Virus record (IMG/VR): IMGVR_UViG_3300044618_002782
Coordinates: 1 to 64,000 of that record
Strand: one strand, 5' to 3'
Source: a virus
Lineage: Duplodnaviria > Heunggongvirae > Uroviricota > Caudoviricetes
DNA: 64,000 nt
Shown: positions 28,177-45,642 of the stretch, piece after piece
Numbering within the stretch: the stretch's first letter is position 1
Layout: each line of letters opens with the position of its first letter
Translations under genes and position numbers: made by a program
The notes under the pieces: generated by a model
Told to the model about the DNA's origin: nothing
The model's database searches: none
What the model saw: only the letters and a program-made list of their open reading frames with translations

Positions 28177-29295
28177 TCATAAATTTTCAAGCTGCAAACT
28201 GTCTAAAAATTTTGTTATCTCAACACTTATATCACAGTCCGACATTTTTTTTGCAAGTTCTCGATTGAACATAAATCTTGGCATCAATGATTCTTTAAGA
28301 TCTTGCAAAGTATTTGATGGGACACGATTGATAAATTTCTCAAGGCTGCTGACAAATTGTTCTATTCGTAACAATGGGTCAGGTTCGTTGTCGTAGCCAT
28401 GATCAATTAATTCGTCAAATAAATCAAAACCTTGCTGTCTTGTTTTTTCAACCTGGCCACGTGGTCCCAATATCATTGGAATCTGACCAAGTACAAATGC
28501 TTTTACTGTTTTTTCAGTGAGCATGGGTACGGTCCAACTCCAGTCTGCGGGCACAGCAGATGAATATTCAAATCCAGACTCTAATACTACATTTACCAAG
28601 GCATTTTTTATTTTGTCATTGGTTATAGTAGATGACTTACAAAAAGATTGTTTGTCAGCAAGTTTTGATTTTAGATCAACAATCCCGTCAACAAAGCAAG
28701 GAAAATATTTTAGATTTTTCTCGTCAATACCTAAGGCTGTATGATTTCTTAAAAAAAATTCATTGCTATTGTCACATTCGGCTGCTGCACCAATGCTAAA
28801 ATATCCCAAATGTTGCAAGTTTCTGTTTAAGATAGAATTAATCACTCGTGTGCGACTGAATCGCGGAATTCTAGCTAAGGCAACAAAATGATGAGTTGCT
28901 TGATAAGAAAATGAGTCTTTCCACTGGTTATGGATATGCCAAAAAAATGTATTACAATCAGTTATTGTGGTATAATCAGCCTGTGGTGATTCCCAACCTG
29001 TTGTTAAATGAAGAATTTTCAACCCAGGATGTAATGATTTTAATGCCGGTAAGAATGAAAAACGATCAATCGTAGGAGATTCGTTGATACTGTGAATAAT
29101 CAGCAGCGGAGGATTCTTTTGAAACTTTGAATACTTTTCAATCAACAGTGCGTCTATCCCCTGAGTGATATTAAAATTGAATTGTGGACGATTAAAATCC
29201 AGTAAAATGCAAGGCAACGGATGCTGATCTATTAGATCAGCATACCTGATGTAGTGCATTTTTGGATCCAAATCAGGAATATAATCTACTATCAT
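28177..29295 (-). CDS. glycosyltransferase-like protein, paralog family member 3
   Basis: LTEKTVKAFVLGQIPMILGPRGQVEKTRQQGFDLFDELIDHGYD, the same C-terminal block as the other members. Confidence 0.4.
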   Translation of the reverse strand: MIVDYIPDLDPKMHYIRYADLIDQHPLPCILLDFNRPQFNFNITQGIDALLIEKYSKFQKNPPLLIIHSINESPTIDRFSFLPALKSLHPGLKILHLTTGWESPQADYTTITDCNTFFWHIHNQWKDSFSYQATHHFVALARIPRFSRTRVINSILNRNLQHLGYFSIGAAAECDNSNEFFLRNHTALGIDEKNLKYFPCFVDGIVDLKSKLADKQSFCKSSTITNDKIKNALVNVVLESGFEYSSAVPADWSWTVPMLTEKTVKAFVLGQIPMILGPRGQVEKTRQQGFDLFDELIDHGYDNEPDPLLRIEQFVSSLEKFINRVPSNTLQDLKESLMPRFMFNRELAKKMSDCDISVEITKFLDSLQLENL

Positions 29296-29296
29296 A

Positions 29297-30787
29297 TTAT
29301 GAACATACCTTTACATTGTATAAAATTTCAAATCTGTCAGCGTCTGCTCGATCATTGACCATGGGTTCGCTTCTGATGTTTAAACTGGTGTTTAGTAGCA
29401 TGGGGCAACCAGTGCGTGCGTACCAGGCTTCTAGCAGTTGTCTGATCCCTGACGCCAAGTCCGGAGCCACTGTTTGAACTCTACTAGTGCCATCCACATG
29501 CACAATAGCAGGATACAACTCAGGAGCCAAGCAGCGGGCGACAGATTGCATATAAGGGCTACTACCGAAACCACGAGGAAGATCAAAGTATTGATCAGCA
29601 TGCTCTTCCAAGATGACAGGGGCAAAGGGTCTAAATTTTTGTCTTCGTTTGATTTCATTTACTCGATCCTTGATATCGGGTCCGCGTGGATCAGCCAATA
29701 AACTTCTATTACCTAGAGCTCGCGGTCCAAATTCGGCAGCGCCGCTGGCCACGCCAACGATACGATCAGTGAGCAGGTGATCAACAACGGCATCGACAGG
29801 ATACTGGCCAGGTATAACATGGCCCAGATAGGGATGCTGCCAGTCAATACGACCACCAAAAGCCAAAGCGGCAGCACCAAGACTACTACCAGCATCACCG
29901 GGACAAGGCATAATCCAAATGTGATCAAAGTATTCTCCCAAGTTTCGATTGGCCAAGCAGTTGAGTGCCACTCCGCCCATGTATACTAAGTTCTTGCTCC
30001 AGTTAAATGCACGAGCACGTTTCATTACATTGTAAATTAATTGTTCTGCCAGTTCCTGCGCGGTGCTGGCAATGTCGTTGTTGTCAGCTGATTCTAACCA
30101 TTTATCATCGATGCCAGCATGCAAATTCTGAGTAAATCTTACTTCGTCCGAATCGGCTACTAAGTCCTGCCGCATGCGATCAATCCAGACAGCACGACCC
30201 CAGCCGGCCATGCCCATGGTAATGTATTCTTCGTCTAGTGGGTGTAGGCCAATGCGGCTAGTAATTCCACTATAAAACAGTCCGATTGAGTGGGGGTATC
30301 GTTGTCCCCACAGCTTTTTATATACTGCACGATTCTTTTGATCATATTCTGCTCCCCAAATACTTATGGTATCCCATTCTCCTATTGCGTCAATAACCAC
30401 AACAGTTGCTCGTGTGTAGGAACTGGTTTGAAATCCAGCAGCAGCATGACTTAGGTGATGATTATAACTGACTGCACGACCAGGACGTTGATGCAGCCAA
30501 GGCGACAATTGGTATTGAATATTTTGATTAAGTGTAATTCGGTTCCAATCAACACCTTGCCCACTGTACAATTGCCGTGACTGTTTTAGCCAGGGTCTTT
30601 CGTACCATGCAATAGTGTCTATGTCATAGTCGCGTATCTCGGCGACTAGGCCGTGGCATATATCTGCGTCATTCTTTCGTTTGCTGTATCGTTCACTGTG
30701 ACCTGCAAACACAATACGGCCGCGATCATCAATTAAGCTGACCGCAGCATCGTGGAAGCCGGCACTGACGCCCAATATATGTTTCAT
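29297..30787 (-). CDS. carbamoyltransferase (NodU/CmcH/TobZ family)
   Basis: N-terminal MKHILGVSAGFHDAAVSLIDD and SYNHHLSHAAAGF match the family hallmark HH.AHAAS. ~500 aa with Kae1-like N-domain plus YrdC-like C-domain. Confidence 0.75.
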   Translation of the reverse strand: MKHILGVSAGFHDAAVSLIDDRGRIVFAGHSERYSKRKNDADICHGLVAEIRDYDIDTIAWYERPWLKQSRQLYSGQGVDWNRITLNQNIQYQLSPWLHQRPGRAVSYNHHLSHAAAGFQTSSYTRATVVVIDAIGEWDTISIWGAEYDQKNRAVYKKLWGQRYPHSIGLFYSGITSRIGLHPLDEEYITMGMAGWGRAVWIDRMRQDLVADSDEVRFTQNLHAGIDDKWLESADNNDIASTAQELAEQLIYNVMKRARAFNWSKNLVYMGGVALNCLANRNLGEYFDHIWIMPCPGDAGSSLGAAALAFGGRIDWQHPYLGHVIPGQYPVDAVVDHLLTDRIVGVASGAAEFGPRALGNRSLLADPRGPDIKDRVNEIKRRQKFRPFAPVILEEHADQYFDLPRGFGSSPYMQSVARCLAPELYPAIVHVDGTSRVQTVAPDLASGIRQLLEAWYARTGCPMLLNTSLNIRSEPMVNDRADADRFEILYNVKVCS

Positions 30788-30871
30788 TTGTATATAAACG
30801 GATCTCTTTTACGAAGTTCTTTTAGTTTTTTTCTGTAACGTATTTCTAATTTGATTTTATCGATCAGTCTT

Positions 30872-31993
30872 TTAATCCAGCGCATGGTGTTCTCCTTGTT
30901 GGCCCGAATAGTCGTATCCGGGTTTCAGTCGATTGATTTGTTGTTGTTTATAATTGCTGTCAGTCCAACAATAATCAAATGTCTGAGTAACCCCGTTGAC
31001 TTCTATACTGTATATATCTAAGTGCGAACCCAGGATATTCCAAATCTCTTGGGCATCAGTTGTTCCAAAACTCTGTTGCAACAGAACTTGTGCTATGGGC
31101 AAGTACCCTAGGCTCAGATTCGGATCAGTAGGATCCCTATTGTTGTCAACAAGCCAGGCACGAAATCGATCTTGCTCTTGATCATGCCATGGTCTTTGTC
31201 CACCATACACAACGTCATTGCCCCATTCTACATCAAATTCTCCAGAGTAATATCTTAGATGCGTGATAGCTTTGCATACAGTATCTGTCAACACTGGTGC
31301 ACCTTCGTCTCTAAATACTTCAAATAAAGTTTTACCTATCTGTGTCCAGTGCATGTAGACCCCGCCAAGCACACGGTCATATCCATTGGTAACAAATTCT
31401 TGCCGATGCTGGGGCAATAAGTCGTAACGGTCTGCAGACAACCAGGTGGTGATCTGACTGGGTCGAACCCAAAAAGGTGCAGTGGCAGCTTTGCGTTGAC
31501 TCAATATGAGATTTTCCATTTCATGGCAAATATTATTGAGTTGTCGTATAGCATACTTGGTTTCGTAACTGGCACATGTATACCATGAACTGAGATTTTC
31601 TACTGTGCCTTGTAAAACTTCAAAATGATTGTGTAACTTGTTTAACAAGTTATGATTGATTCCGTTTTCAGCATAATCAAAACCCACAACAGTATCGGGT
31701 GTGTATGTTTCTGTAATTTGATAGTCTGTGAACTCAGAGTTTATAACAGCGACGGCCTGGGTTAATTCTCTGCAGAGATAAGGCAGTGTTCTTGCAGTGT
31801 TTGGAAATCCCATAAAACAAAAGTTTTTTTCTAGCAGTTTACCGGATGCTAGTAGTTTAGTTAATGCCACTTTCCAGTCTCTAGCCAAGAGATGATCTTG
31901 TACTTCAATTGTGTAATCAACTAAATCTCGACGAGATAACGGATTTCGTAGTACTACTTTAACTTGGGATTGCATTCCACCACCTTGCCACAT
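30872..31993 (-). CDS. hypothetical protein (373 aa)
   Basis: Intact ORF inside the island with no recognisable motif. Overlaps the downstream end of rSAM-A1 by 35 nt. Confidence 0.4.
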   Translation of the reverse strand: MWQGGGMQSQVKVVLRNPLSRRDLVDYTIEVQDHLLARDWKVALTKLLASGKLLEKNFCFMGFPNTARTLPYLCRELTQAVAVINSEFTDYQITETYTPDTVVGFDYAENGINHNLLNKLHNHFEVLQGTVENLSSWYTCASYETKYAIRQLNNICHEMENLILSQRKAATAPFWVRPSQITTWLSADRYDLLPQHRQEFVTNGYDRVLGGVYMHWTQIGKTLFEVFRDEGAPVLTDTVCKAITHLRYYSGEFDVEWGNDVVYGGQRPWHDQEQDRFRAWLVDNNRDPTDPNLSLGYLPIAQVLLQQSFGTTDAQEIWNILGSHLDIYSIEVNGVTQTFDYCWTDSNYKQQQINRLKPGYDYSGQQGEHHALD

Positions 31994-33260
31994 CGGGTCT
32001 TTGTTGTAGGATTTTTTGCATATCAGTTGGCGCCGATCTAATACTTTCTAATTTTAACACACGAGCTTTGCCTTTTGCAAGTCCTTGTTGGTATGTGTCA
32101 GGCCATTGTTCATCAAAGGTCGGCCGCTGTTTTAATTGCGTCAGCATGTCACGCATTGTGCCTGTGACTTCGGGTAACAACTCGTCAATCCAAGGATGTA
32201 GTATTGACCTAGGCAATGCCAACGGACTCATGACAATGTCAGGTGAAAAGCTGAATATGACCTTGGCTAGAATGTCAACTCCTAAATCTTTAGCTACTGC
32301 TATTATAGGAACAATTTCAAACATGCCGGGTAGGGTCAATGTAAAATCCAAGCGCATCTGACGAGGATGCCGCATACGATCAACACCATGACGAAAGTTT
32401 TCTAAAAATATCGACCAGTCAAGTCCTGTTCTGATGTATTCTCCGATGGATCCTGTTCCGTCGATGCTGGCACAAATTTGCCAATCGCGTATATGATCAA
32501 GTATATCACTGTATAAATTGGTACCACGATACTGTATGCGACTAAGATTAGTATTATATCTGGCATATACAAGTCCCCCATCTCCTTGATCAACAATTTG
32601 TTTCATGTACCGCCAATGCTGTTCGTACATGAGTGGCTCGCCGCCGACCCAATAAACTTCTTCTACTCTGTGTTCTGATACTGCTTGTGCAAATTCTGCT
32701 TCAATCTGGCTGTCTTGGAAAGCAGTTATTTCTTGTTTGACCGCAGGCTGCATCCAATTGTTTTTGGGATTCGTCCAGTCAATCATGTTGTGCTGCCGTT
32801 GTTCGCTTTCCCACGCACTGGACAACATGTCTCCACAAGTTCTACATTTGAAATTACATAAGTTACTGAATCGATAATCCCAACTCACAGGCTTCATTGT
32901 GGTTGCACCTGATTCATCGGTGTTAGACCAAATGTCATTGTACTTGTGTTTGAACAAGTGCCAGAAATAAGTCCTATAGACATCTGTATTTAATAATTTG
33001 TTGTTGCAAACTTCGCACTCGGGTAAAGTTTCACCAGCCATCATTCGACGACGTACCGACCGCATGTGTTCGCTGTTCCAGTGTTGATCCAAAGTGATAG
33101 GAATATATCTACCAGTACCTGCACTTGTGTCGATGTATTGTTGAAAGTTTTGTGCAGGTTCTCGACTGGCACAGCACATGCGTCGTTCAGTTTGCGGACT
33201 AAGATAGGTATGAGTCCAGGGTGCCATACAAAGCATATCAGGACGCGGGATCATATTCAA
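31959..33260 (-). CDS. radical SAM enzyme, paralog family A member 1
   Basis: CNFKCRTCG (CxxxCxxC) and WVGGEPLM. Family-A N-terminus C.APW...........CC (CMAPWTHTYLSPQTERRMCC). Confidence 0.6.
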   Translation of the reverse strand: MNMIPRPDMLCMAPWTHTYLSPQTERRMCCASREPAQNFQQYIDTSAGTGRYIPITLDQHWNSEHMRSVRRRMMAGETLPECEVCNNKLLNTDVYRTYFWHLFKHKYNDIWSNTDESGATTMKPVSWDYRFSNLCNFKCRTCGDMLSSAWESEQRQHNMIDWTNPKNNWMQPAVKQEITAFQDSQIEAEFAQAVSEHRVEEVYWVGGEPLMYEQHWRYMKQIVDQGDGGLVYARYNTNLSRIQYRGTNLYSDILDHIRDWQICASIDGTGSIGEYIRTGLDWSIFLENFRHGVDRMRHPRQMRLDFTLTLPGMFEIVPIIAVAKDLGVDILAKVIFSFSPDIVMSPLALPRSILHPWIDELLPEVTGTMRDMLTQLKQRPTFDEQWPDTYQQGLAKGKARVLKLESIRSAPTDMQKILQQRPDVARWWNAIPS

Positions 33261-34455
33261 TTATTGCCGCAAATTCAGGTTGTACCTTACAAAGATTCTG
33301 TTGTCGTTTACGATCTAGGTCTTTTATTTTCATACGCATCATGAATCCGTCGGTCGATGCACCACGATTCATAAAATTGCAGATTCGATCAAACTCTGCT
33401 CGGTATTGTTCTGGTATGTCCGATGTGCTTAGATGATTTTCTATTGCTGCTTTTGCTGTATCGGGCAGAGTTGCAATGCTAAAATACCAAGCATCGTGCA
33501 TCATGTTCCAGTAAACAAAATCAAAACTCTGTTCTGCAATCCAGCGAGCTACATGTTCCAAATAGTATACATTGAAGATGTTGACTGTGCAGCATACTTG
33601 CAAGCGTATATGAAGGTGACGGTTACGCATAGCCATAAAGCGAGCAATATTATGTTCTACTTCGGACCATACAGCATTGGATCGTTGATACTCAAATCTT
33701 TCGCCAACATCGTCGATGCTGAATGCAATTTCCACAGTCTTAAAATGTTGCCATATATTTTCAGCTTCTTCTGGAAATTGTGTACCGTTTGTATTGTAAT
33801 GTATCTCTACCTGCCCAGCAATGCCACGATCTACAATTCTTTCTAAGAATTCAAAATGTTCTTGAATCATAAAGGGTTCACCGCCAGTGAACTCAATGTA
33901 ACGTATCTGATCAGTTATTGTGTCAATTTCACTCCAGAACTTTTCGTTTTCACGTGGCCACGCACCAGCACGTAGCATCTGATAAGGAAATGTTTTTTTC
34001 TTATCATCTGCTGGATTCATGTCGTTGAGTTCTTCTGCAGCAAACTGGCTTGAACTCCAAGATCCACAAATACGGCATTTGAGATTACAAATGTTTCCCA
34101 ACTTCAAATCTAAAAACATCAAGGGTTTGGCATCTGCTGTCCAATCTTGATCTGGCAACATGTGCTTGAGTCGATCCAATGTGTGCATACGTTTGCTGGT
34201 TCGACCGGATCGTTCTTCATTCCAACATTTACGACAAGTCTGTGGTTGCTTGCCTGCTAAAAATTGCTCTCGTAGCTTTTGCATGTGTTGACTGTTTTGT
34301 ATGTTTGCAAAGTCGGCTGTGGCCAATTCAAACTTGCTGCCGTTGTCATCGACAATTTCGTCATCAGCAAGACAACAAGGTCTTACTGTACCAATAGGAC
34401 TGGCTTCAAGACTGACCCAAGGCAATACACAAAATTTATCGTGTGGTATGTTCAT
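33238..34455 (-). CDS. radical SAM enzyme, paralog family A member 2
   Basis: CNLKCRICG and FTGGEPFM. N-terminus CVLPWVSLEASPIGTVRPCC. Confidence 0.6.
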   Translation of the reverse strand: MNIPHDKFCVLPWVSLEASPIGTVRPCCLADDEIVDDNGSKFELATADFANIQNSQHMQKLREQFLAGKQPQTCRKCWNEERSGRTSKRMHTLDRLKHMLPDQDWTADAKPLMFLDLKLGNICNLKCRICGSWSSSQFAAEELNDMNPADDKKKTFPYQMLRAGAWPRENEKFWSEIDTITDQIRYIEFTGGEPFMIQEHFEFLERIVDRGIAGQVEIHYNTNGTQFPEEAENIWQHFKTVEIAFSIDDVGERFEYQRSNAVWSEVEHNIARFMAMRNRHLHIRLQVCCTVNIFNVYYLEHVARWIAEQSFDFVYWNMMHDAWYFSIATLPDTAKAAIENHLSTSDIPEQYRAEFDRICNFMNRGASTDGFMMRMKIKDLDRKRQQNLCKVQPEFAAIIEYDPAS

Positions 34456-36158: not shown

Positions 36159-37483
36159 AATGAATTATACCATTCTTTTAATTTTGGAAAGGTCGCTGCA
36201 AAGTCTTTTCCTCTGCGCTGGTCATATTGAACGTAAAACTGTCGAAAATCATTCAACAGCCGAGGCATATCAAATGTTTCACTGTGCGGTGTTTTAACTG
36301 TGTCAAGATAATCAATCAAGCGTTGTAAATGATTTAGTTCGTGTTCCTGTAACACAGGATTATCTGCGTTGTAATCTAACCATGCTTCTAAATTTTTTCG
36401 GTAACGTGTTTTGATATTGTCTGGCAAGATCAAAGGGCTTTGGAAACTGGGAAAACGCAAGATGTTTAAAGTAAAATTAACACGCTCTCGACCGTAGATA
36501 TTTTTTAGTGCTACCAGAGCTGATAAAAATTCTGGCAGTGTTTCCAAACACAAAGCATTGATAGTACACATGACATGCACTGCACGAACAGGACTTTCCA
36601 ACAACTTGATTACATTGTTGCACCAGGCTGCATAATCAAGACCGTCTCGTATGTATTCTGCGTGTGTACCGTAGCATTCGTTACTGGTATATACGTCAAT
36701 CGCTAGTCCATCAACACTGTTGATAAATCGTTCCAGATCAATATCTGCACCCAAATTACTGTTGATGGCCAGACGTGTTGAGCTCTTGTTGCGATTGTCT
36801 CGAAACCAATCAATCAGGCGCCAGGTATATCCCGACATCAATGGCTCACCGCCGGTTATTCTTAACTCATCCAAGGTACGATGCAGGTCTGATTCCCACC
36901 ACTGAAAGAAAGCTTCCACATAAGGATTGGTTTCGCCAAATCGATATAACTGTGCCGAATCGTGCGCATGAGTAAAGTGATTTCGACCATCGCTTATCAA
37001 CCCAACATAGGCGCCATTTTTTCGAATGTCGTTGACCCAGGTACTGCTGAAAGCAGGGTTACAATAGCTACAGGCAAACTGACAAGTGCGATCAAATGCA
37101 ATTTCTAGAGTTTTGAGGTTAACATCTTGATCTACTGGCGTTGCTGCTGCTGTTTGCAGTGCATGTATAGGATATATTTTACTTTTGTAAACCCGGTCGC
37201 TGATGTTTTCTCTACCGATGTCCTCGATTTTCCAACAGTATTCGCAGCCGGGTGGCCGTTCTCCTGCAATCATTTCAGCACGATCGCGTTTCTTTTCTGG
37301 TGTGTTATGCAAGGCACGAGGATTGGCCTGTACTGCTTCTACGCTGACATGATGCGCCGGTGGGTGATGGCAACTGGTAGTCATGCCAGAGCCCAACCAT
37401 ATAGTGGCGTTGTACCATTTGGCTCCGCAAAAACTGTCACTTATGGGATCTAATACCTGCTGGCGGAATTCTAAATCATTCAC
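36155..37483 (-). CDS. radical SAM enzyme, paralog family B member 2
   Basis: CQFACSYC and ITGGEPLMSG. N-terminus FCGAKWYNATIWLGSGMTTSCHH...CEYCW. C-terminus YDQRRGKDFAATFPKLKEWYNSL. Confidence 0.65.
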   Translation of the reverse strand: MNDLEFRQQVLDPISDSFCGAKWYNATIWLGSGMTTSCHHPPAHHVSVEAVQANPRALHNTPEKKRDRAEMIAGERPPGCEYCWKIEDIGRENISDRVYKSKIYPIHALQTAAATPVDQDVNLKTLEIAFDRTCQFACSYCNPAFSSTWVNDIRKNGAYVGLISDGRNHFTHAHDSAQLYRFGETNPYVEAFFQWWESDLHRTLDELRITGGEPLMSGYTWRLIDWFRDNRNKSSTRLAINSNLGADIDLERFINSVDGLAIDVYTSNECYGTHAEYIRDGLDYAAWCNNVIKLLESPVRAVHVMCTINALCLETLPEFLSALVALKNIYGRERVNFTLNILRFPSFQSPLILPDNIKTRYRKNLEAWLDYNADNPVLQEHELNHLQRLIDYLDTVKTPHSETFDMPRLLNDFRQFYVQYDQRRGKDFAATFPKLKEWYNSL

Positions 37484-38619
37484 GGTCTGTGTTGCTTTAT
37501 AAAATTAAAAAATTTGTCAGCGAATTCTGACTTGATGCAAGATGAAAGCTGCTGTAGATGCTGTTGATTGTATTTACAAATACTTTCGCTGGCCTGCATA
37601 AAAGATGTTAAATCTTGTTGGCATAAATCATTGACCACTGCCGCAATACGATCCATCCTTTCTTGACTGTTATCTATCGAATCAAAACTTTCGTCAATTA
37701 AACTGTCAAAGGTTTGGAATCCAAGATTGCGCATGTCGCGATAAAAACCTGCATTGCTGGCCACAATCCAAGGATGACCAACAGCCAAGGGTTTGGCTAT
37801 TTTTTCTGTGCGAAAGCTGTAAGGATAGTCAAACACAGTTTCGGTGACCAAGCTGAAATAGGTATCGCAATAGGGTTCTGCTTGTAAATATATTTCTCCC
37901 CAGGTGTAATTAAACAGTTCGTTTTTTACAAATGTACGTTCTGCTGGACCAGGAGAGATCACCGTAGTACGATATTGCTCGACTTCATACTTGGCTGGCA
38001 ACCTCTGCAGTGGTGTTGTTGTTGCCATGAGATTGATTCCGTTGTATTTTAAATTGAATTGTCTGCTAATTGTGGGACGGCTGTCCAGCATGGTCCACAG
38101 TGCATGTTTTAGCAAATCCTGTTGTTGAAATTTATGCCAAAGATATTTTCTATGCGGTCGTGCCCGGCCGTTGAGAAACATGAACTTATAGGGCTTGTTT
38201 GTTTGTGAAAATATGTCCCCGGCTCGATCAATTTCCCGATGATTTTCAGGATAATCTAAAATTCTACAAAGAAAATGATCGTGTTGTATGTAAGGATAGC
38301 AGCTTTCCATTGCACCGCCACCGATAATTAAAATTTTACCTTCCAGAACCAATGTGGTCAATTTCAACATGTTTAGTTGGTCAACCAGTGTTCCGGATCC
38401 TTCGGCACTGTTGCCGAACACCATTACAAATCTAGGATCCTGAGCTAGCTCTTTAAATTTTTCTTGATTTTCTACTACTTGCAATCTACCCAGTACATAT
38501 ACACTGTTGGGTATAGGATCATGGGAAGCAAAGTCCCAAAATTCTGCGTCTGCCCAAGGTTTCAATTCCTGATACACTTCCGACATGGTGTCTATGACTA
38601 AATTACGCGGACCGAGCAT
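37480..38619 (-). CDS. glycosyltransferase-like protein, paralog family member 4
   Basis: RTEKIAKPLAVGHPWIVASNAGFYRDMRNLGFQTFDSLIDESFD, the same C-terminal block. Confidence 0.4.
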   Translation of the reverse strand: MLGPRNLVIDTMSEVYQELKPWADAEFWDFASHDPIPNSVYVLGRLQVVENQEKFKELAQDPRFVMVFGNSAEGSGTLVDQLNMLKLTTLVLEGKILIIGGGAMESCYPYIQHDHFLCRILDYPENHREIDRAGDIFSQTNKPYKFMFLNGRARPHRKYLWHKFQQQDLLKHALWTMLDSRPTISRQFNLKYNGINLMATTTPLQRLPAKYEVEQYRTTVISPGPAERTFVKNELFNYTWGEIYLQAEPYCDTYFSLVTETVFDYPYSFRTEKIAKPLAVGHPWIVASNAGFYRDMRNLGFQTFDSLIDESFDSIDNSQERMDRIAAVVNDLCQQDLTSFMQASESICKYNQQHLQQLSSCIKSEFADKFFNFIKQHRP

Positions 38620-40003
38620 GTGCTTCGCACTCCTTCCACCAGGTGGTCATTTCAGGAAATGTTTTTAAAAAATTAGTTCCACGTCGACGATCATGCTCAC
38701 TAAAAAACTTATAAAAGTCTGCTTTCTTTTCTGCAACACAATCAGTTCCAGATCGCATCCAGGCAATGTCTCGACGCATACGCTGCACTTCGTAGTCTTT
38801 GAAACCGTGGAAAGGATCCTCTGGGGTTTCTAAATTTAATTCCATCCAGTCTGCTACACGTTCCAAAATTCCAGCATACGCGGGCGGAAGTATTTGTAGA
38901 CTTTGCCAAGCAGGTTGACGCAGCAACGGTGTGTCAAACCACACACGTTGATAAGTTTTGCTATATGCTCTGCGCATTGCTAATATATCTTCTAGTAGCT
39001 TTTGCAAACCTAAAATACTGAGATTATTCATTGTGATAATAAATGTAAGGCTGTTGCGATTAGGGATTTCAAACAAGAAGTGATGTGAGTAAGCCATTAC
39101 ACGATCGTAATTCATACCATGTCTAATATATTCAGCTTGATGTGCATTGCCACTATCGAGACTAACATACTGCATAAAGTGTTCGATTTGTGTATTGCAT
39201 AATTGTTTTACATAACCAATATACTTTTCAAACAAGCCAGTTTCGACACTGAAGTTGCTGGTAACATTTAAATGCAGGTCAGGATTGGGCAAGGCCAGCA
39301 CATAGTCAAACACCCGGTAGGTATTCTTATCCATAAGTGGTTCGCCGCCGGTCATACGAAAATGTTTCAACTGTGGATATAGTGTAGGCCACCATCGCCA
39401 AAATGCTTCTACGTAAGGATTAGCGTCCCTAGCAGGAATAGGCCGGTTACGGCCAGTAAAATGACTAGGATCGTTGTGAATACGACTCGTAGGGTATCCG
39501 CCCAGACGGTTAATTTCTTGTTCCCATGTGGAACTAAATTGAGGACTGCAATAACTACAAGCAAGATTACAAGCGTGATTAAAATTAACCTCCACATAAC
39601 TAGGAACGACATCTTCATCTCCGGTTGAGTTTTTAACAAAATCTAATGCATCAGCAGCCCAAGGCTCTCCAGATCGATAGTGACGATCACTTAGGTTACC
39701 AGTATCTTCAATGTTCCAACAGTAACTACATTCTGCAGGACGTTCCTGGCGTAACATGATTTTGCGCTGTTCTTTCTTGAATAGTGTATTGTGTAATGCA
39801 CCTGGGTTGTCTTCCAGTAGCGTGGCATCAATGGCATGCAAAGGAGGATGATAGCATGAATTGTTCAACCCAGTAGGCAAGTGCAAGCTAACTTGTTTCC
39901 ATTTGGCCAAGCATAATCCTGTACCGAGTTCTTGTTTCATTTGTTCTGCTGAACTCATGAATCGACTTTTGTTGTCAAACAATTTGTCTCCCTTATTTGA
40001 CAC
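38603..40003 (-). CDS. radical SAM enzyme, paralog family B member 3
   Basis: CNLACSYC and MTGGEPLMDKN. N-terminus LCLAKWKQVSLHLPTGLNNSCYH...CSYCW. C-terminus HDRRRGTNFLKTFPEMTTWW. Confidence 0.65.
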   Translation of the reverse strand: MSNKGDKLFDNKSRFMSSAEQMKQELGTGLCLAKWKQVSLHLPTGLNNSCYHPPLHAIDATLLEDNPGALHNTLFKKEQRKIMLRQERPAECSYCWNIEDTGNLSDRHYRSGEPWAADALDFVKNSTGDEDVVPSYVEVNFNHACNLACSYCSPQFSSTWEQEINRLGGYPTSRIHNDPSHFTGRNRPIPARDANPYVEAFWRWWPTLYPQLKHFRMTGGEPLMDKNTYRVFDYVLALPNPDLHLNVTSNFSVETGLFEKYIGYVKQLCNTQIEHFMQYVSLDSGNAHQAEYIRHGMNYDRVMAYSHHFLFEIPNRNSLTFIITMNNLSILGLQKLLEDILAMRRAYSKTYQRVWFDTPLLRQPAWQSLQILPPAYAGILERVADWMELNLETPEDPFHGFKDYEVQRMRRDIAWMRSGTDCVAEKKADFYKFFSEHDRRRGTNFLKTFPEMTTWWKECEAHARSA

Positions 40004-40810
40004 TTAATTTAGCCCCATCTGTTGTCGAATTTCAGTTCCAGATATTTGGGTAATTTCTTTGTCAAATGTTTCCTCACCAGATGTATATCCTACTCCACGC
40101 CCCCATCCAATGTGTACAATATTGGGAACCACTTGTATTTCGTACTGTCCTTGGTACAAGGGATCTAAGTCGTGTCTGATACGCTGTTTAACTTCTTCTA
40201 GACCAAATGGGTTAGAACCTTGCCATCCTTGCACGTCACGTATTTGAATAACGACCTGTCCAGTTTTTGCAAGTAGTCTTTCAAACAGAGCACGATGTCC
40301 CGGATGCCAAGGTTGCCAGCGTCCCAACATCTGCACTGTTTCTTTGCGCCAGTCAAACACTGGACGACGCTGATTAGACAAAATGTGATCAGCAACAAAC
40401 ACTGACCATTTGGCAGCATCTTGTTCGATTATTCTAAAGTCATATACAGTAGGTGGGATAAAGGCCTTGTTGGTATCTTCGTATCGCCCTTGCTCAATTG
40501 TATCCATCCAGACTGTCCAGTCTGCTTTAAAGTTATTGCGCATTTCCACTAACGGAGCAACAAAGTCGCAAATAACATAATCGGCAGCAGACTGTTCTGC
40601 TAATTCTGCCATTCTGAGACTTTGACGAATGCGTCCAGTTTCGGTAAAGTCCCAGTCATTGAATTTCTTGCGTACTTCGTCAGCATTAAACCAATCGACT
40701 GTAATGCCGAATCCTTCGTATTTAATATCCTCAACGTGATTTTTTAATGCTGTTGCTAGTGTAGTTTTTCCTGCGCCAGGAAGTCCCATTATTAATATTT
40801 TTTGTGCCAT
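40004..40810 (-). CDS. fusion protein: APS-kinase-like P-loop domain + compact HxGH nucleotidyltransferase-like domain
   Basis: N-terminal ILIMGLPGAGKTTLATAL. ADEVRKKFNDWDFTETGRIRQSLRMAELAEQSAADYVICDFVAPL parallels CysC GDNVRHGLN.DLGFS..DR.ENIRRVAEVAKL...AG...ISP. C-terminal GRWQPWHPGHRALFE is a Q...P.HxGH motif, cf. cytidylyltransferase-like/ATP-sulfurylase HxxH. Confidence 0.5.
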   Translation of the reverse strand: MAQKILIMGLPGAGKTTLATALKNHVEDIKYEGFGITVDWFNADEVRKKFNDWDFTETGRIRQSLRMAELAEQSAADYVICDFVAPLVEMRNNFKADWTVWMDTIEQGRYEDTNKAFIPPTVYDFRIIEQDAAKWSVFVADHILSNQRRPVFDWRKETVQMLGRWQPWHPGHRALFERLLAKTGQVVIQIRDVQGWQGSNPFGLEEVKQRIRHDLDPLYQGQYEIQVVPNIVHIGWGRGVGYTSGEETFDKEITQISGTEIRQQMGLN

Positions 40811-40822
40811 ATTATCAACTCC

Positions 40823-41434
40823 TTAATTAATTGGATATTTCCAGTCGGACAAATAAAATTTTACTTCATCTAGATTTTCTATCATTAACTCTGGTAAAAA
40901 TGCATAAGAATTTTTTTTGATTGTCGATTTTGTAAAATCTATGTCTTCGTAGTACAACGTCGTGTCTGCTTGAAATTGATCGTCTATTAGTTGTTCTATA
41001 ATAAATTGCTCTATATCATTGTAACTTACACAATAAGACTTTGGGGCAACATAATCCTGAAATTGATGATCAAAGTGATAAATGGCTCCTATTGATTTAA
41101 AATAAATCCAACTAGCAAACTGCTTGACTTTATCTCTACGTCTTATATTAACAATATACGAATTTTCCTTTAATTGTTTAATTTTTGGTAAGATTCCAAT
41201 TTTGCCATTGAGCTGTACTGCGTGTGCTAACATCGGTCTTGCTGATATAGATAAAAAAGGATCAAAATCTCTCCAGGGTGTTTTTGAGCACTGACTCATT
41301 GCAATTTCTCCTAGATAATTTAGAGCATTTTTTTCTTTCTTTATCATCGAACCCATTGGATGTGTACCCGATCTTGGCGAACCTATAATCAAAATATTTT
41401 TATTTTGAGATTGCGCAATTATATTGTTCACCAT
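40823..41434 (-). CDS. sulfotransferase-like P-loop protein (Stf0-like candidate)
   Basis: N-terminal ILIIGSPRSGTHPMGSMI resembles the sulfotransferase 5'-PSB loop (P[KR]SG[ST]). ~200 aa. Adjacent to the APS-kinase-like gene. Confidence 0.4.
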   Translation of the reverse strand: MVNNIIAQSQNKNILIIGSPRSGTHPMGSMIKKEKNALNYLGEIAMSQCSKTPWRDFDPFLSISARPMLAHAVQLNGKIGILPKIKQLKENSYIVNIRRRDKVKQFASWIYFKSIGAIYHFDHQFQDYVAPKSYCVSYNDIEQFIIEQLIDDQFQADTTLYYEDIDFTKSTIKKNSYAFLPELMIENLDEVKFYLSDWKYPIN

Positions 41435-42354
41435 CCTTCTTGTTTCCGAATTACATCAATTTCTCTTACCATGACACCTTGATTATGCCAGTTTCCGCGA
41501 TAATGATGCTTGAAGAATCGACTTTGTTGATTGTTTAACATGCACATGGGCAAGTCCAATTGTGTGTATAGTGCATCCTGATATGTTTGAATAACTTCAG
41601 CAGGGTCTCGTCCGTGTGTATCTTGCCAAATAGCATCTAATGCATCAAACCATTGCACTTCACGATAATCCCAATCAGTTAACATGGCCTTGTACGTACC
41701 CATTCTGGCGCCGGCTATGGCCCATGCACCTTGTTCAACGTCTGCACCTACATTGTGCCATACACTAAGATGATCTAAATTGCGACGATGAACACGATCT
41801 CGAAATTCAGTTAACGTGGGCTTTCGACCTTTGTCTAAGCACATCTTGACACCTTCTCTGAAACCGGCACGCCAGGCATGTTTGGGACTGCCGTTGGGAT
41901 GTGTGGTTGAATAGCAATCGTGCATGGACCAATATGCAGGGTCAAAGCAAAATTCAACTACTGTTTCGTCGCGACCGTCGGTGTTCTCGTGTGTTTTCAT
42001 GTTGAGCACATGATCTCGAGTCCAGGAACTGATGCCACCGTTACCGTACATGAGCCCGTTGATGTGATTACGGGCACGCCAGCGATACACTGCCTTTTCA
42101 TATTCTGCAGAGGGATAAGAAAGTGTTAAGTTAAAAAATTCCCAGTCCGGCATGTTGTCGCCGTCAATGAGAACAAATCTTTCAGTGCTGCTGGCCTCAG
42201 CCGCAGCTTTGTGTGCTGCGTCGCTGCCTTTGACGCCATCCACACGTTGAGCCCAGGGTATTTGATTTTTGATTTTGACCCAGAATTCTTCTTTCTGTGG
42301 TTCGTCGTACGTGAGATAAATCACATCCAAGTCTGCTATGTCAACTGTTGTCAT
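41428..42354 (-). CDS. hypothetical protein (308 aa), possible GT-A-like (FVLIDGDNMP DxD-like motif)
   Basis: Intact ORF. The DxD-like motif is weak evidence only. Confidence 0.3.
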   Translation of the reverse strand: MTTVDIADLDVIYLTYDEPQKEEFWVKIKNQIPWAQRVDGVKGSDAAHKAAAEASSTERFVLIDGDNMPDWEFFNLTLSYPSAEYEKAVYRWRARNHINGLMYGNGGISSWTRDHVLNMKTHENTDGRDETVVEFCFDPAYWSMHDCYSTTHPNGSPKHAWRAGFREGVKMCLDKGRKPTLTEFRDRVHRRNLDHLSVWHNVGADVEQGAWAIAGARMGTYKAMLTDWDYREVQWFDALDAIWQDTHGRDPAEVIQTYQDALYTQLDLPMCMLNNQQSRFFKHHYRGNWHNQGVMVREIDVIRKQEGW

Positions 42355-42685
42355 AGTTTTTTAATTTCCATTTTTGATTGGGTGCTGTGTCATCAACTAC
42401 AATAGCCACATTAGAAATGTGGCAAGGAGTTCCGTCAACAGCAGGTATTAGTTTAGAAACTGTGCGAGCGGTCGGCTTGATTAACTGTCCATTCTTGACA
42501 CGCACATGCGGATCGCTGACAGCAAATTGCTCTGCTGTGATCTCAATGTACTTACCTGGCTGGTCTTCCATGCTGTACGCTATTGGCTCACCGGCATCGT
42601 TGTAATACAGTCGATAAAATATTGGAGCAGGTTCTGGCCAAACATAAGTTTTCCAAAAATCTTCGAAGATTTCGTTATTGTTCAT
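42341..42685 (-). CDS. hypothetical protein (114 aa)
   Basis: Intact ORF, coupled to neighbours. Confidence 0.35.
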   Translation of the reverse strand: MNNNEIFEDFWKTYVWPEPAPIFYRLYYNDAGEPIAYSMEDQPGKYIEITAEQFAVSDPHVRVKNGQLIKPTARTVSKLIPAVDGTPCHISNVAIVVDDTAPNQKWKLKNYDNS

Positions 42686-44561: not shown

Positions 44562-44593
44562 CGTTTTATTATACAGGGGAACAGGACAAAAGT

Positions 44594-45623: not shown

Positions 45624-45642
45624 TTATTTGTTTCCAATTAGA

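What the first reader, a model, noticed from the sequence alone, without database searches (positions are those of the whole stretch)
28177..41434. Nod-factor-like decoration toolkit: carbamoyl-, sulfo- and fucosyl-like transferases plus PAPS-supply enzyme
The island combines a NodU/CmcH-family carbamoyltransferase (29297..30787) and an Stf0/NodH-like sulfotransferase candidate (40823..41434). Next to the sulfotransferase is an APS-kinase-like enzyme (40004..40810), the NodQ/CysC function that makes PAPS. Four paralogs also carry a C-terminal block resembling the (I/V)TEK...VPVV.GP motif of alpha-1,3-fucosyltransferases (NodZ-like role). This is the set of tailoring activities used by rhizobia to decorate lipo-chitooligosaccharides. 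It suggests the product is an oligosaccharide carrying carbamoyl and sulfate groups. A PAPS-dependent sulfation system in a phage would itself be notable.
Basis: partly seen in the sequence, partly recalled or inferred. Interest (0 to 1): 0.7.

Follow-up and report, generated by a model that had tools for sequence, protein, structure and literature searches.

The report
Jumbo-phage glycan tailoring and sulfation island
An uncultured giant bacteriophage carries, next to its tail-fibre genes, a block of about 25 soluble enzymes that most likely build and decorate a sugar chain, including a sulfotransferase paired with an enzyme that probably makes the sulfate donor PAPS; this pairing recurs in many other aquatic phages.

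Summary

- **Carbamoyltransferase:** 29297-30787 is a true NodU/CmcH-family enzyme.
- **Sulfotransferase:** 40823-41434 has no direct Pfam hit. Motifs, a confident model and transitive profile links place it in the Stf0 clan.
- **"TEK" paralogs:** there are four and they have the GT-B glycosyltransferase fold. They are not demonstrably GT10, and two lie outside the interval (21817-24082).
- **Missed content:** 52% of the interval is five N-terminal-twitch radical-SAM genes, with a sixth just outside. No NodABC-type backbone genes were found.

The interval is the core of a roughly 27-kb island of all-soluble enzymes (17.6-44.6 kb) in a Rak2/Atu_ph07-like jumbo phage. The module from the fibre genes to the radical-SAM/GT-B run is syntenic in at least 10 related contigs.

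The kinase fusion family lies within 6 kb of a sulfotransferase in 25 of 80 viral loci. These sulfotransferases belong to two different families and often abut the kinase. This supports a PAPS-supply role.

The acceptor is unknown; virion fibres are my best guess. This is a new variant of phage glycan clusters.

The parts
17607..18575 (+). NAD-dependent NDP-sugar epimerase/dehydratase (sugar-nucleotide supply)
   Evidence: PF01370 7e-43, PF16363 2.5e-34
18530..19660 (+). DegT/DnrJ/EryC1-type NDP-sugar aminotransferase
   Evidence: PF01041 5.6e-62
19638..21818 (-). 726-aa protein with repeated F-D-[FY]-[ST]-W-H-P-[DE]...Y.FGTQ.Q.TGGP units. Its C-terminal third is paralogous to the 308-aa protein at 41428-42354.
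   Evidence: Self-BLAST 7e-9; sequence read; no Pfam or NCBIfam hit
21817..22908 (+). TEK-block paralog 1, GT-B glycosyltransferase family; outside the finding's coordinates
   Evidence: Self-BLAST; A2 profile 6e-85; alignment A2
22892..24082 (+). TEK-block paralog 2, GT-B glycosyltransferase family; outside the finding's coordinates
   Evidence: BLAST 2.5e-17 to 37480-38619; A2 profile 4e-98
24079..25098 (+). Amidinotransferase (AGAT/StrB1/SxtG/HsvA family), with the C-terminal GG.sCcT.D.RRRG active-site block
   Evidence: phmmer vs PDB: AGAT 3.9e-14, SxtG 4.5e-9, StrB1 5.7e-9
26626..28044 (-). Twitch radical-SAM paralog, 42% identical to 36155-37483
   Evidence: PF04055 2.5e-7; BLAST 2e-136; CxxxCxxC motif CNLACSYC
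28177..29295 (-). TEK-block paralog 3 (LES...LTEKTVKAFVLGQIPMILGP), GT-B family
   Evidence: A2 profile 2e-88
29297..30787 (-). NodU/CmcH-family O-carbamoyltransferase
   Evidence: PF02543 + PF16861; phrog_1601 7.5e-88; NodU model 129 bits, far below its equivalog cut-off of 1000
30872..31993 (-). Conserved 373-aa protein of unknown fold; precedes the carbamoyltransferase in relatives as well
   Evidence: 39% identity to L003:19043-20089; no family hit
31959..37483 (-). Four consecutive, overlapping N-terminal-twitch radical-SAM genes (31959-33260, 33238-34455, 34452-36158, 36155-37483)
   Evidence: NF033640 N_Twi_rSAM 1.7e-84, 2.2e-101, 2.3e-119, 9.5e-87 against a cut-off of 170 bits; SPASM + Radical_SAM Pfam hits
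37480..38619 (-). TEK-block paralog 4, the modelled one: GT-B glycosyltransferase conserved in all related modules
38603..40003 (-). N-terminal-twitch radical-SAM enzyme; follows the sulfotransferase directly in relatives that lack the kinase
   Evidence: NF033640 8.4e-87; synteny
40004..40810 (-). Fusion of an APS-kinase-like P-loop domain (res. 1-~150) and an NMNAT-like HxGH/ISxT nucleotidyltransferase domain (res. ~158-268); candidate PAPS-supply enzyme
   Evidence: PF01583 37.3 bits; profile vs PDB: APS kinases 9e-14 and weaker, NMNAT 2e-6; invariant G9-K15, D44, R47, F55, R60, Q63, FVAP83-86; linked to sulfotransferases in 25/80 loci
40823..41434 (-). Minimal (203-aa) Stf0-clan sulfotransferase
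41428..44561 (-). Five conserved module genes between the sulfotransferase and the fibres: 308 aa (..LIDGDN..), 114 aa, 264 aa (..KLEADM..), 267 aa (..LDADYV..), 102 aa. The DxD-type motifs suggest GT-A-like transferases, but this was not verified.
   Evidence: Orthologues 45-72% identical in L003, L007, L008 and L015-L021; no Pfam, NCBIfam or PDB-sequence hits
44640..47001 (-). Context: two fibre-like proteins. The 327-aa one is 30% Ser+Thr. The 452-aa one is 59% identical to an L007 protein (427 aa) with a weak Peptidase_G2 hit. Candidate acceptors.

Best explanation
The interval is the centre of a roughly 27-kb glycan-building and glycan-tailoring island (about 17607-44561) in an uncultured jumbo myophage. 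The island lies directly downstream of the baseplate, giant-fibre and tail-fibre genes.

Proposed mechanism:
1. An NDP-sugar epimerase/dehydratase and a DegT aminotransferase make an amino-deoxy sugar nucleotide.
2. Four paralogous GT-B transferases, and possibly DxD-motif proteins, attach sugars to an acceptor in the cytoplasm. None of the island proteins has a membrane segment, and there is no flippase, polymerase or ligase.
3. Tailoring enzymes then decorate the product. A NodU/CmcH-type enzyme adds carbamoyl. A minimal Stf0-clan sulfotransferase adds sulfate from PAPS. An AGAT/StrB1-type enzyme adds an amidino group. Six twitch radical-SAM enzymes carry out radical chemistry of unknown type.
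4. The APS-kinase/nucleotidyltransferase fusion next to the sulfotransferase supplies PAPS, at minimum by phosphorylating host-made APS.

Shown here: the family or fold identity of each enzyme, the synteny of the fibre-to-radical-SAM/GT-B core of the module across relatives (a carbamoyltransferase at its far end is seen in the three contigs whose gene tables reach it), and the recurrent kinase-sulfotransferase linkage.

Inferred: the order of steps, the chemistry of the radical-SAM enzymes, and the acceptor. My best guess for the acceptor is a virion fibre protein, for example the adjacent protein that is 30% Ser/Thr.
For: - **Enzyme identities:** (Pfam, NCBIfam, PDB sequence searches).
- **Kinase:** PF01583 above the cut-off and more than 20 solved APS kinases hit by the family profile. 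The residues I map to the APS-binding Arg/Phe/Arg/Asn and FISP positions are invariant as R47/F55/R60/Q63 and FVAP.
- **Kinase-sulfotransferase linkage:** 25 of 80 IMG/VR kinase loci have a sulfotransferase within 6 kb. Twenty are canonical PF13469/PF00685 enzymes and 5 are Stf0-like. The genes abut or overlap in L041, L056, L070, L075, L076, L080 and L086. After dereplication the count is 23 of 72 clusters at 95% kinase identity and 18 of 52 at 90%. As a base rate, the canonical family is in 10 of 50,697 phage records and the Stf0-like family is in none.
- **Module conservation:** gene order from the fibre genes through the sulfotransferase to the radical-SAM/GT-B run is shared by at least 10 contigs with 36-72% protein identity. 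A carbamoyltransferase lies at the far end in the three contigs whose gene tables reach it.
- **Solubility:** all island proteins lack TM-like segments.
- **Operon-like packing:** 4- to 35-base overlaps between most genes.
- **Cultured precedent:** Synechococcus phage S-SRM01 has sulfotransferase, glycosyltransferase and nucleotide-sugar epimerase genes clustered.
Against: - No acceptor or product is identified.
- The APS-kinase match covers only the N-terminal two thirds of the domain; the lid half is shortened and unmatched. The first Asp of the DGD motif is Asn. NCBIfam equivalog cut-offs are missed by a wide margin (28.6 vs 138.7 bits).
- Most members of the kinase family sit away from any sulfotransferase. 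Examples are next to RNR, next to GTP cyclohydrolase I/PTPS, next to NifU, and in early regions of the Sano/Salvo phages.
- Most sulfotransferase-bearing modules have no kinase adjacent to the sulfotransferase.
- A hairpin followed by a T-rich tract separates the fibre genes from the island at 44562-44639. Co-transcription with the structural genes is therefore not established.
Confidence: 0.6

Rival explanations
1. DNA glycan hypermodification. The GT-B enzymes glycosylate hydroxymethylated bases in phage DNA, as T4 alpha- and beta-glucosyltransferases do, and the tailoring enzymes decorate that DNA-linked glycan to block restriction.
For: - All enzymes are soluble and cytoplasmic.
- Phage glycosyltransferases that hypermodify DNA with diverse glycans are documented (Pyle et al. 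2024, as cited in PMC12619734).
Against: - No base hydroxymethylase is present in the window; a ThyX that makes ordinary dTMP is present at 16573-17259.
- The module is always wedged against fibre genes, not replication or nucleotide genes.
- NDP-amino-sugar enzymes are typical of surface glycans (established knowledge).
Confidence: 0.12
2. The island makes a host-directed or diffusible product rather than a virion decoration. One form is remodelling of host envelope glycans during infection. Another is synthesis of a small aminoglycoside-like or Nod-like oligosaccharide carrying carbamoyl, amidino and sulfate groups. The first reader's lipo-chitooligosaccharide idea is the extreme form.
For: - The carbamoyl-, amidino- and aminotransferase set resembles aminoglycoside and saxitoxin tailoring (TobZ/StrB1/SxtG-type families).
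- Cyanomyophage 'LPS gene clusters' are a long-standing precedent with unresolved targets (my own knowledge).
Against: - No NodA/NodB/NodC, GT2 chitin-synthase, acyltransferase, lipid-carrier transferase, flippase or exporter was found among the scanned ORFs.
- No membrane protein occurs in the island.
- The module is strictly syntenic with fibre genes across diverged relatives.
Confidence: 0.13
3. The kinase fusion has nothing to do with sulfation. It is a NadR-like NAD salvage enzyme (nicotinamide-riboside kinase plus NMN adenylyltransferase) or another nucleotide-metabolism gene that landed beside the sulfotransferase by chance.
For: - The C-terminal domain is closest to archaeal/NadM NMNAT (2.4e-6). 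Its GRWQPWHPGH and ISGTEIR motifs resemble the archaeal NMNAT motifs as I recall them.
- Some metagenome annotations call homologues 'nicotinamide riboside kinase'.
- Many family members sit in nucleotide-metabolism neighbourhoods.
Against: - The kinase domain profile hits more than 20 APS kinases at 1e-13 to 1e-6, but the NadR kinase domain only at 0.012.
- Sulfotransferases of two unrelated subfamilies lie within 6 kb in 25 of 80 loci, often abutting the kinase. The base rate is at most 0.02% of phage records.
Confidence: 0.12
4. The targets are peptides or proteins, not sugars. On this reading the twitch radical-SAM enzymes act like RiPP or anSME-type maturases on fibre proteins, and the sulfotransferase sulfates tyrosine or serine as TPST and RaxST do.
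For: - SPASM/twitch radical-SAM enzymes are mostly peptide or protein modifiers; weak NCBIfam hits go to peptide maturases.
- The island is adjacent to fibre genes.
Against: - Four to eight glycosyltransferase-like genes plus NDP-sugar enzymes share the same block.
- The closest sulfotransferase family by profile is the carbohydrate-specific Stf0.
- No precursor-peptide-like small ORF was examined.
Confidence: 0.1

Closest known systems
Rhizobial Nod-factor tailoring set (NodU/NolO carbamoyltransferases, NodH sulfotransferase, NodPQ PAPS synthesis, NodZ fucosyltransferase)
   Same: Both combine a NodU/CmcH-family carbamoyltransferase, a PAPS-type sulfotransferase and a dedicated APS-kinase activity in one locus devoted to decorating a saccharide.
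   Different: - No NodABC backbone genes were found.
- The carbamoyltransferase scores 129 bits against a NodU equivalog cut-off of 1000.
- No ATP sulfurylase (NodP/CysD-type) is present.
- The glycosyltransferases are not GT23 (NodZ) and are not demonstrably GT10.
- Six radical-SAM enzymes and an amidinotransferase have no Nod equivalent.
- The genomic context is a phage fibre region.
Glycan gene clusters of large cyanophages, e.g. Synechococcus phage S-SRM01 (sulfotransferase - glycosyltransferase - nucleotide-sugar epimerase)
   Same: Both are phage-encoded clusters of a sulfotransferase with glycosyltransferase(s) and NDP-sugar enzymes. The function of phage sulfotransferases is explicitly stated to be unclear in PMC10580990.
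   Different: - S-SRM01 has a canonical Sulfotransfer_1/3 enzyme, 34% identical to the L012 type, not the 203-aa Stf0-like form.
- No APS-kinase fusion, carbamoyltransferase or radical-SAM array is annotated nearby.
Mycobacterial Stf0 (trehalose 2-sulfotransferase, PF09037)
   Same: - The P-R-S-G-[ST] 5'-phosphosulfate loop and the Arg...Ser 3'-phosphate motif are shared.
- A conserved Glu lies about 22 residues after the loop.
- Distant relatives of the phage family hit PF09037.
   Different: The window protein is about 40 residues shorter, is only about 10% identical in the structural alignment, and does not itself reach any Pfam threshold. Its acceptor is unknown.
APS kinase CysC/NodQ, and metazoan PAPS synthase (APS kinase fused N-terminally to ATP sulfurylase)
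   Same: - The P-loop, the second Asp of DGD, the Arg/Phe/Arg positions and a FISP-like FVAP are conserved.
- The domain order, with the kinase N-terminal to a nucleotidyltransferase-superfamily domain, matches PAPS synthase.
   Different: - Only the first ~95 residues align, and the lid region is shortened.
- The C-terminal domain is ~110 aa and NMNAT-like. It shows no detectable similarity to ATP sulfurylase: solved sulfurylase fusions matched only through their kinase domains.
Virion glycosylation in mycobacteriophages (Freeman et al. 2023, cited in PMC12619734)
   Same: Phage-encoded glycosyltransferases modify structural proteins in the cytoplasm. This is the proposed logic here.
   Different: Those systems use a few glycosyltransferases and no sulfation, carbamoylation, amidination or radical-SAM steps. 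Attachment to the virion is not demonstrated here.
T4 beta/alpha-glucosyltransferases and DNA glycan hypermodification (Pyle et al. 2024)
   Same: They share a minimal GT-B fold of similar size, and T4 beta-glucosyltransferase is the top structural match.
   Different: There is no sequence-level relationship, no hydroxymethylase in the window, and the location is a structural-gene region.

Membership tests
NodU/CmcH carbamoyltransferase family | Both Carbam_trans_N (Kae1/ASKHA-like) and Carbam_trans_C domains score above Pfam thresholds | tested here: met
   PF02543 113 bits (cut-off 24) and PF16861 167 bits (cut-off 27)
NodU/CmcH carbamoyltransferase family | Equivalog of NodU itself (NF041651 cut-off) | tested here: not met
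   129.4 bits against a cut-off of 1000. It is a family member, not a NodU orthologue.
PAPS-dependent sulfotransferases (Stf0 / Sulfotransfer_1/3 clan) | 5'-phosphosulfate-binding loop P-[KR]-x-G-[ST]-x without a Walker-A GK[ST] lysine | tested here: met
   GSPRSGTH. R21, S22, G23 and H25 are invariant in 39 homologues. R21 and G23 are invariant in 101 distant relatives.
PAPS-dependent sulfotransferases (Stf0 / Sulfotransfer_1/3 clan) | 3'-phosphate-binding Arg...Ser motif | tested here: met
   RRRDKVKQFAS. R99, Q105 and S108 are invariant. R99 and S108 are conserved at 90% or more in A7.
PAPS-dependent sulfotransferases (Stf0 / Sulfotransfer_1/3 clan) | Direct profile match of the protein itself above a curated threshold | tested here: not met
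   No Pfam, NCBIfam or PHROG hit. No PDB sequence hit, even with the family profile.
PAPS-dependent sulfotransferases (Stf0 / Sulfotransfer_1/3 clan) | Homology traceable to curated sulfotransferase families through intermediates | tested here: met
   Of 100 relatives found with the family profile, 15 hit PF09037, 10 hit PF13469, 6 hit PF00685 and 1 hit PF17784, with no kinase family recurring (one member hit AAA_18).
PAPS-dependent sulfotransferases (Stf0 / Sulfotransfer_1/3 clan) | Sulfotransferase fold | tested here: inconclusive
PAPS-dependent sulfotransferases (Stf0 / Sulfotransfer_1/3 clan) | PAPS-dependent sulfuryl transfer activity | not testable with these tools
   Needs an enzyme assay.
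APS kinase (CysC/NodQ, PF01583) | Pfam gathering threshold | tested here: met
   37.3 bits against 21.1, but only residues 4-96 match profile positions 4-94 of 152.
APS kinase (CysC/NodQ, PF01583) | Equivalog-level score (TIGR00455 and the PRK models) | tested here: not met
   28.6 against 138.7 bits, and 31.9 against 127 bits.
APS kinase (CysC/NodQ, PF01583) | P-loop, DGD motif, APS-contacting Arg/Phe/Arg/Asn and FISP motif (residue roles taken from my knowledge of the P. chrysogenum and human PAPSS1 structures) | tested here: inconclusive
   G9-K15, D44, R47, F55, R60 and FVAP83-86 are invariant. The first Asp is Asn (N-A-D) and the Asn position is Gln63.
APS kinase (CysC/NodQ, PF01583) | C-terminal lid half of the domain | tested here: inconclusive
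   No profile or PDB alignment extends beyond residue ~97. By eye the region is about 11 residues shorter.
ATP sulfurylase (tested for the C-terminal domain of the fusion) | Sequence similarity to sulfate adenylyltransferase catalytic domains | tested here: not met
   Solved ATP sulfurylase/APS kinase fusions (2gks, 3cr8, 1x6v, 1m8p) matched only through query positions 5-91, which is the kinase domain.
NMN adenylyltransferase (archaeal/NadM type) | GxxxPxHxGH and ISxTxxR motifs, and a profile match | tested here: inconclusive
   Both motifs are invariant. PDB profile hits are MJ0541 at 2.4e-6 and NadM at 2.5e-6. NCBIfam scores are far below the cut-offs (24.5 vs 127).
GT10 alpha-1,3-fucosyltransferases | Profile match to Glyco_transf_10 (PF00852) | tested here: not met
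   No hit for any of the four paralogs or the 24 homologues at E up to 1. There was no PDB sequence hit with the family profile.
GT10 alpha-1,3-fucosyltransferases | GT-B fold with an ..E-[NT]-[ST]..x(8-11)..T-E-K donor-binding block | tested here: met
   The fold is GT-B. E260 and T271-E272-K273 are invariant across the family and all four paralogs.
GT10 alpha-1,3-fucosyltransferases | Structurally closer to GT10 than to other GT-B families | tested here: not met
Nod-factor (lipo-chitooligosaccharide) pathway | NodC chitin-oligomer synthase, NodB deacetylase and NodA acyltransferase | tested here: not met
   No such Pfam families were found among 40 of the 43 ORFs of 150 aa or more in the window, the ones taken as genes. 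The 4691-aa ORF and ORFs under 150 aa were not scanned.
N-terminal twitch radical-SAM proteins (NF033640) | Score above the curated cut-off and a CxxxCxxC cluster motif | tested here: met
   Five genes score 284-399 bits against a cut-off of 170. The sixth, 26626-28044, is assigned by 42% identity to 36155-37483. The motifs are visible.

The most novel reading that the evidence does not exclude
The 268-aa fusion is a self-contained miniature PAPS synthase. Its ~110-residue NMNAT-like domain would adenylylate sulfate, making it a previously unrecognised minimal ATP sulfurylase. The APS-kinase-like domain would then phosphorylate the product. The domain order is the same as in metazoan PAPS synthase.

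Together with a neighbouring sulfotransferase, this would form a host-independent sulfation cassette. The cassette is widespread in aquatic phages: at least 7984 family members were found, and about 30% of sampled viral loci are linked to a sulfotransferase. It would place sulfate on virion glycans.
Probability: 0.2. Interest if true: 0.85.

Novelty: new variant of a known kind. Interest (0 to 1): 0.6.

Why it matters
Phage genomes are known to carry glycosyltransferase or 'LPS' clusters and scattered sulfotransferase and cysC annotations. Their targets are mostly unknown, and the role of phage sulfotransferases is explicitly called unclear (PMC10580990).

This work gives three concrete, testable leads:
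1. A conserved and unusually elaborate tailoring module sits fixed next to the fibre genes of a widespread uncultured jumbo-phage lineage. It contains four GT-B enzymes, six twitch radical-SAM enzymes, and carbamoyl-, amidino- and sulfotransferases.
2. An abundant APS-kinase/nucleotidyltransferase fusion family shows a statistically striking and repeated linkage to sulfotransferases of two families. This makes PAPS-dependent sulfation by phages a defined biochemical hypothesis.
3. The 203-aa sulfotransferase and the unannotated 2800-member GT-B family are new, compact members of their folds.

If virions carry sulfated or carbamoylated glycans, this would bear on adsorption, host range and evasion of host or grazer recognition.

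Tried and rejected
- **Megablast against phage records:** the whole interval gave no match. tblastn of the sulfotransferase and of the TEK protein also gave none. No cultured phage carries the module; only one radical-SAM gene has a cultured homologue, in Ralstonia phage RsoM2USA at 53% identity.
- **Family profiles against PDB sequences:** the sulfotransferase and TEK profiles found nothing usable. The profiles for the 264-aa and 267-aa proteins also found nothing.
- **Pfam scan of 28 TEK-family members at E up to 1:** no glycosyltransferase family appeared.
- **Promoter and terminator scan of 24-44 kb:** counts were at shuffle level (64 vs 54.8+/-7.9, and 20 vs 16.1+/-4.0). I therefore make no operon claim from it. 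The T4-type late motif TATAAATA occurs only three times on the minus strand.
- **jackhmmer from the canonical L012 sulfotransferase:** the search drifted into the kinases through the shared P-loop-like fold. Only hits with E below 1e-60 were counted as sulfotransferases, and a sample of them was verified with Pfam.
- **'This is bacterial DNA':** considered because of the CHASE2 cyclase, the TctA transporter and the MoxR/VWA genes. Rejected because of the baseplate wedge, the fibres, ThyX and the synteny with viral contigs of up to 344 kb.
- **Literature searches:** searches for twitch radical-SAM enzymes in phages, or for this gene combination, found nothing relevant.

Full report
**What is in the interval**

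28177-41434 lies inside an uninterrupted minus-strand gene train running from 63966 down to 25853. Most neighbouring genes overlap by 4-35 bases. In order along the minus strand (descending coordinates), the interval holds:
- 40823-41434: a 203-aa protein
- 40004-40810: a 268-aa P-loop protein
- 38603-40003: radical SAM
- 37480-38619: a 379-aa protein
- 31959-37483: four radical-SAM genes
- 30872-31993: a 373-aa protein of unknown function
- 29297-30787: a carbamoyltransferase
- 28177-29295: a 372-aa protein

Five of these genes score 284-399 bits on NCBIfam NF033640, 'twitch domain-containing radical SAM protein', against a cut-off of 170. They occupy 6957 of the 13258 bases. A sixth paralog lies at 26626-28044.

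**The genome**

The 690-aa protein at 61894-63966 is about 30% identical over 93-96% of its length to the baseplate wedge of the jumbo phages Atu_ph07, Phosso, 121Q and PBECO4. It is followed by a 4691-aa ORF and fibre-like proteins, and a ThyX is present. Related contigs in public viromes reach 344 kb. The element is therefore an uncultured jumbo myophage. No cultured phage matches the interval at the DNA level.

**Carbamoyltransferase**

29297-30787 has both Pfam carbamoyltransferase domains, well above threshold, and matches phrog_1601. It scores 129 bits against the NodU equivalog cut-off of 1000. It is a family member, not a NodU orthologue.

**Sulfotransferase**

The 203-aa protein has no hit of its own in Pfam, NCBIfam, PHROGs or PDB sequences. 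Four independent lines nevertheless place it in the sulfotransferase clan.
1. *Motifs.* It has 72 homologues, all unannotated. In them GSPRSGTH, E43, K78 and R99..Q105..S108 are invariant. This is the P-[KR]-x-G-[ST] 5'-phosphosulfate loop, which lacks a Walker lysine, plus the Arg...Ser 3'-phosphate motif.
2. *Weak direct links among close homologues.* Of 39 close homologues, 17 touch Sulfotransfer_3 and 11 touch Sulfotransfer_1 (best E 5e-5).
3. *Transitive links.* A profile search of 1.8 billion representatives found 180 relatives. Among 100 distant ones, 15 match Stf0 PF09037 (best 2.5e-11), 10 match Sulfotransfer_3, 6 match Sulfotransfer_1 and 1 matches Sulfotransfer_4. No kinase family recurs; a single member hit AAA_18. 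R21, G23, E43, R99 and S108 remain conserved.

**Kinase**

Residues 4-96 match PF01583 at 37.3 bits against a cut-off of 21.1. A 13-member family profile hits more than 20 different solved APS kinases at E 9e-14 to 1e-6. PSTK comes next, and the NadR kinase domain scores only 0.012. The invariant residues are the P-loop, D44, R47, F55, R60, Q63 and FVAP. In the printed alignments these line up with the second Asp of DGD, the Arg/Phe/Arg/Asn positions that contact APS, and the FISP motif; the residue roles come from my memory of the fungal and human structures.

There are caveats. The first DGD Asp is Asn. Nothing aligns beyond residue ~97, so the lid is shortened. NCBIfam equivalog thresholds are missed by a wide margin.

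It has invariant GRWQPWHxGH and ISxTxIR motifs and is closest to archaeal and NadM-type NMNAT (2.4e-6). It shows no detectable similarity to ATP sulfurylase.

**Is the kinase tied to sulfation?**

The family is very large: at least 7984 proteins. Many members sit in unrelated neighbourhoods. Examples are the early regions of Xylella phages Sano and Salvo, next to RNR, next to GTP cyclohydrolase I/PTPS, and next to NifU. Conversely, most contigs that carry this sulfotransferase module have no kinase between the sulfotransferase and the next radical-SAM gene. Only the window and one other lineage do (L008/L015; kinase 67% identical, sulfotransferase 52% identical).

However, a close homologue (86% identical) sits two genes from a canonical Pfam-positive sulfotransferase, beside T4-like neck and terminase genes. 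I therefore sampled 80 IMG/VR loci that carry the kinase.
- Twenty-five have a sulfotransferase-family gene within 6 kb. Twenty are canonical and five are Stf0-like.
- The genes abut or overlap in at least seven loci.
- Six of the canonical hits were checked and are PF13469/PF00685-positive above cut-off.
- After dereplication, the count is 23 of 72 clusters at 95% kinase identity and 18 of 52 at 90%.
- As a base rate, the canonical family occurs in 10 of 50,697 phage records and the Stf0-like family in none.

This repeated linkage, across two sulfotransferase families, is the strongest evidence that the fusion serves sulfation. It most simply makes PAPS from APS. The variable presence of the kinase could reflect whether the host itself makes PAPS; that is inference.

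**TEK paralogs**

There are four: 21817-22908 (+), 22892-24082 (+), 28177-29295 (-) and 37480-38619 (-). Two lie outside the stated interval. E260, T271-E272-K273 and several Gly, Asp and Arg residues are invariant across the paralogs and 24 homologues. The family has 2801 members, and none of the 120 listed carries a Pfam domain.

**The wider island**

Upstream on the + strand lie an NDP-sugar epimerase/dehydratase and a DegT aminotransferase. After the two GT-B genes comes an amidinotransferase, with AGAT at 3.9e-14 and SxtG and StrB1 at about 5e-9.

Between the sulfotransferase and the fibre genes are five conserved genes. Three of them carry DxD-like motifs, but none has a detectable family.

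No protein from 17607 to 44561 has a TM-like segment. No flippase, polymerase, lipid-carrier transferase or exporter was seen.

The order fibres - 102 aa - 267 aa - 264 aa - 114 aa - 308 aa - sulfotransferase - rSAM - GT-B - rSAM - rSAM is conserved in at least 10 contigs at 36-72% identity. A further rSAM, the 373-aa protein's homologue and a carbamoyltransferase follow in the three contigs whose gene tables reach that far.

**Interpretation**

The best reading is a cytoplasmic glycan-assembly and tailoring module. Its product carries carbamoyl, sulfate and probably amidino and amino groups, and is further altered by radical chemistry. A PAPS-supply gene has been added in some lineages.

The acceptor is not known. 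I favour virion fibre proteins for four reasons:
- the module is invariably positioned beside them;
- all the enzymes are soluble;
- the adjacent fibre protein is 30% Ser/Thr;
- virion glycosylation has a precedent in mycobacteriophages (cited in PMC12619734).

A hairpin and T-tract between the fibre genes and the island means co-transcription is unproven.

The rivals are DNA glycan hypermodification, host-envelope or small-molecule products, a NadR-like role for the fusion, and protein rather than sugar substrates. They are listed with their tests.

The Nod-factor picture is an analogy of tailoring activities only. No backbone genes are present.

**Novelty**

Phage glycan clusters, phage cysC and phage sulfotransferases have all been annotated before (10.1101/2020.02.13.942896; PMC8290583; PMC10580990; the S-SRM01 cluster). 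What is new here:
- the composition and conservation of this module;
- the compact Stf0-like sulfotransferase family;
- the unannotated GT-B family;
- the kinase-nucleotidyltransferase fusion family and its demonstrated linkage to sulfotransferases.

The most novel reading that the evidence does not exclude is that the fusion is a miniature PAPS synthase.

Noticed in passing
window 24079-25098 (+): An amidinotransferase of the AGAT/StrB1/SxtG/HsvA family, with a C-terminus (GGISCCTQDIRRRGGLETYL) almost superimposable on that of AGAT. Pfam and NCBIfam missed it. This is an unusual enzyme for a phage and implies a guanidino group on the product.
   Followed up: partly
window 31959-40003 and 26626-28044 (-): Six paralogous radical-SAM genes with an N-terminal twitch/SPASM-like domain (NF033640), in two subgroups. 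They occupy more DNA than all the enzymes the finding named. One is 53% identical to gp202 of Ralstonia jumbo phage RsoM2USA. Their chemistry is unknown.
   Followed up: partly
window 860-2950 (+): A CHASE2 sensor fused to an adenylate/guanylate cyclase domain, with about 3 TM segments. This is a bacterial-type signalling protein encoded in a phage genome.
   Followed up: no
window 7501-10814 (-); L011 2543-5844: A 10-TM TctA-family tricarboxylate transporter subunit followed by two genes of unknown function. The same trio appears in a related 278-kb viral contig, and a TctC-like gene lies next to the kinase in L014.
   Followed up: no
window 4421-4933, 12259-13347, 14059-15330, 16573-17259 (+): A rubrerythrin, a MoxR-type AAA ATPase, a DUF2201 metallopeptidase/VWA protein and a ThyX. 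These are auxiliary genes outside the island.
   Followed up: no
window 47819-61894 (-): A single 4691-aa ORF, with 4739-4957-aa orthologues in relatives that have faint FG-GAP and CBM_5_12 hits. It lies between the baseplate wedge and the fibres and is a candidate giant fibre and possible glycan acceptor.
   Followed up: no
window 19638-21818 (-): A 726-aa protein with at least five repeats of an F-D-[FY]-[ST]-W-[HQ]-P-[DE] ... Y.FGTQ.Q.TGGP unit. Its C-terminal third is paralogous to the conserved 308-aa module protein (41428-42354). It matches no known family.
   Followed up: no
window 44562-44639 (-): A hairpin (AAAGGACT-N7-AGTCCTTT) followed by a T-rich tract and a TATAAT-like box, between the 327-aa fibre gene and the first island gene. 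This may be a transcription boundary.
   Followed up: no
L008 13952-14782: In the other lineage that has the sulfotransferase-kinase pair, a 276-aa gene in the module has a weak DHHA1 hit (E 0.0016). DHH/DHHA1 proteins include pAp phosphatases, which remove the by-product of sulfotransfer.
   Followed up: no
L033, L037, L039, L042, L046 (~6830-8330, - strand): In five kinase-selected viral loci, a member of the TEK GT-B family (A2 profile, 1e-31 to 1e-35) lies immediately downstream of the kinase and convergent to it. The kinase is therefore also recurrently near this glycosyltransferase family.
   Followed up: no
L050 3840-5618; L088 903-2693; L016 9007-9618: Some kinase-linked canonical sulfotransferases are about 595-aa proteins with a C-terminal extension of about 390 aa of unknown function. 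One module relative (L016) carries a second, diverged copy of the Stf0-like sulfotransferase after the GT-B gene.
   Followed up: no
window 25029-25769 (+) and 25853-26647 (-): Two convergent genes with N-terminal G-D-S blocks (FNGDSNMSG, VFVGDSYCS). One has a weak DUF6071 hit. They may be SGNH/GDSL-type esterases or acyltransferases that belong to the tailoring set.
   Followed up: no
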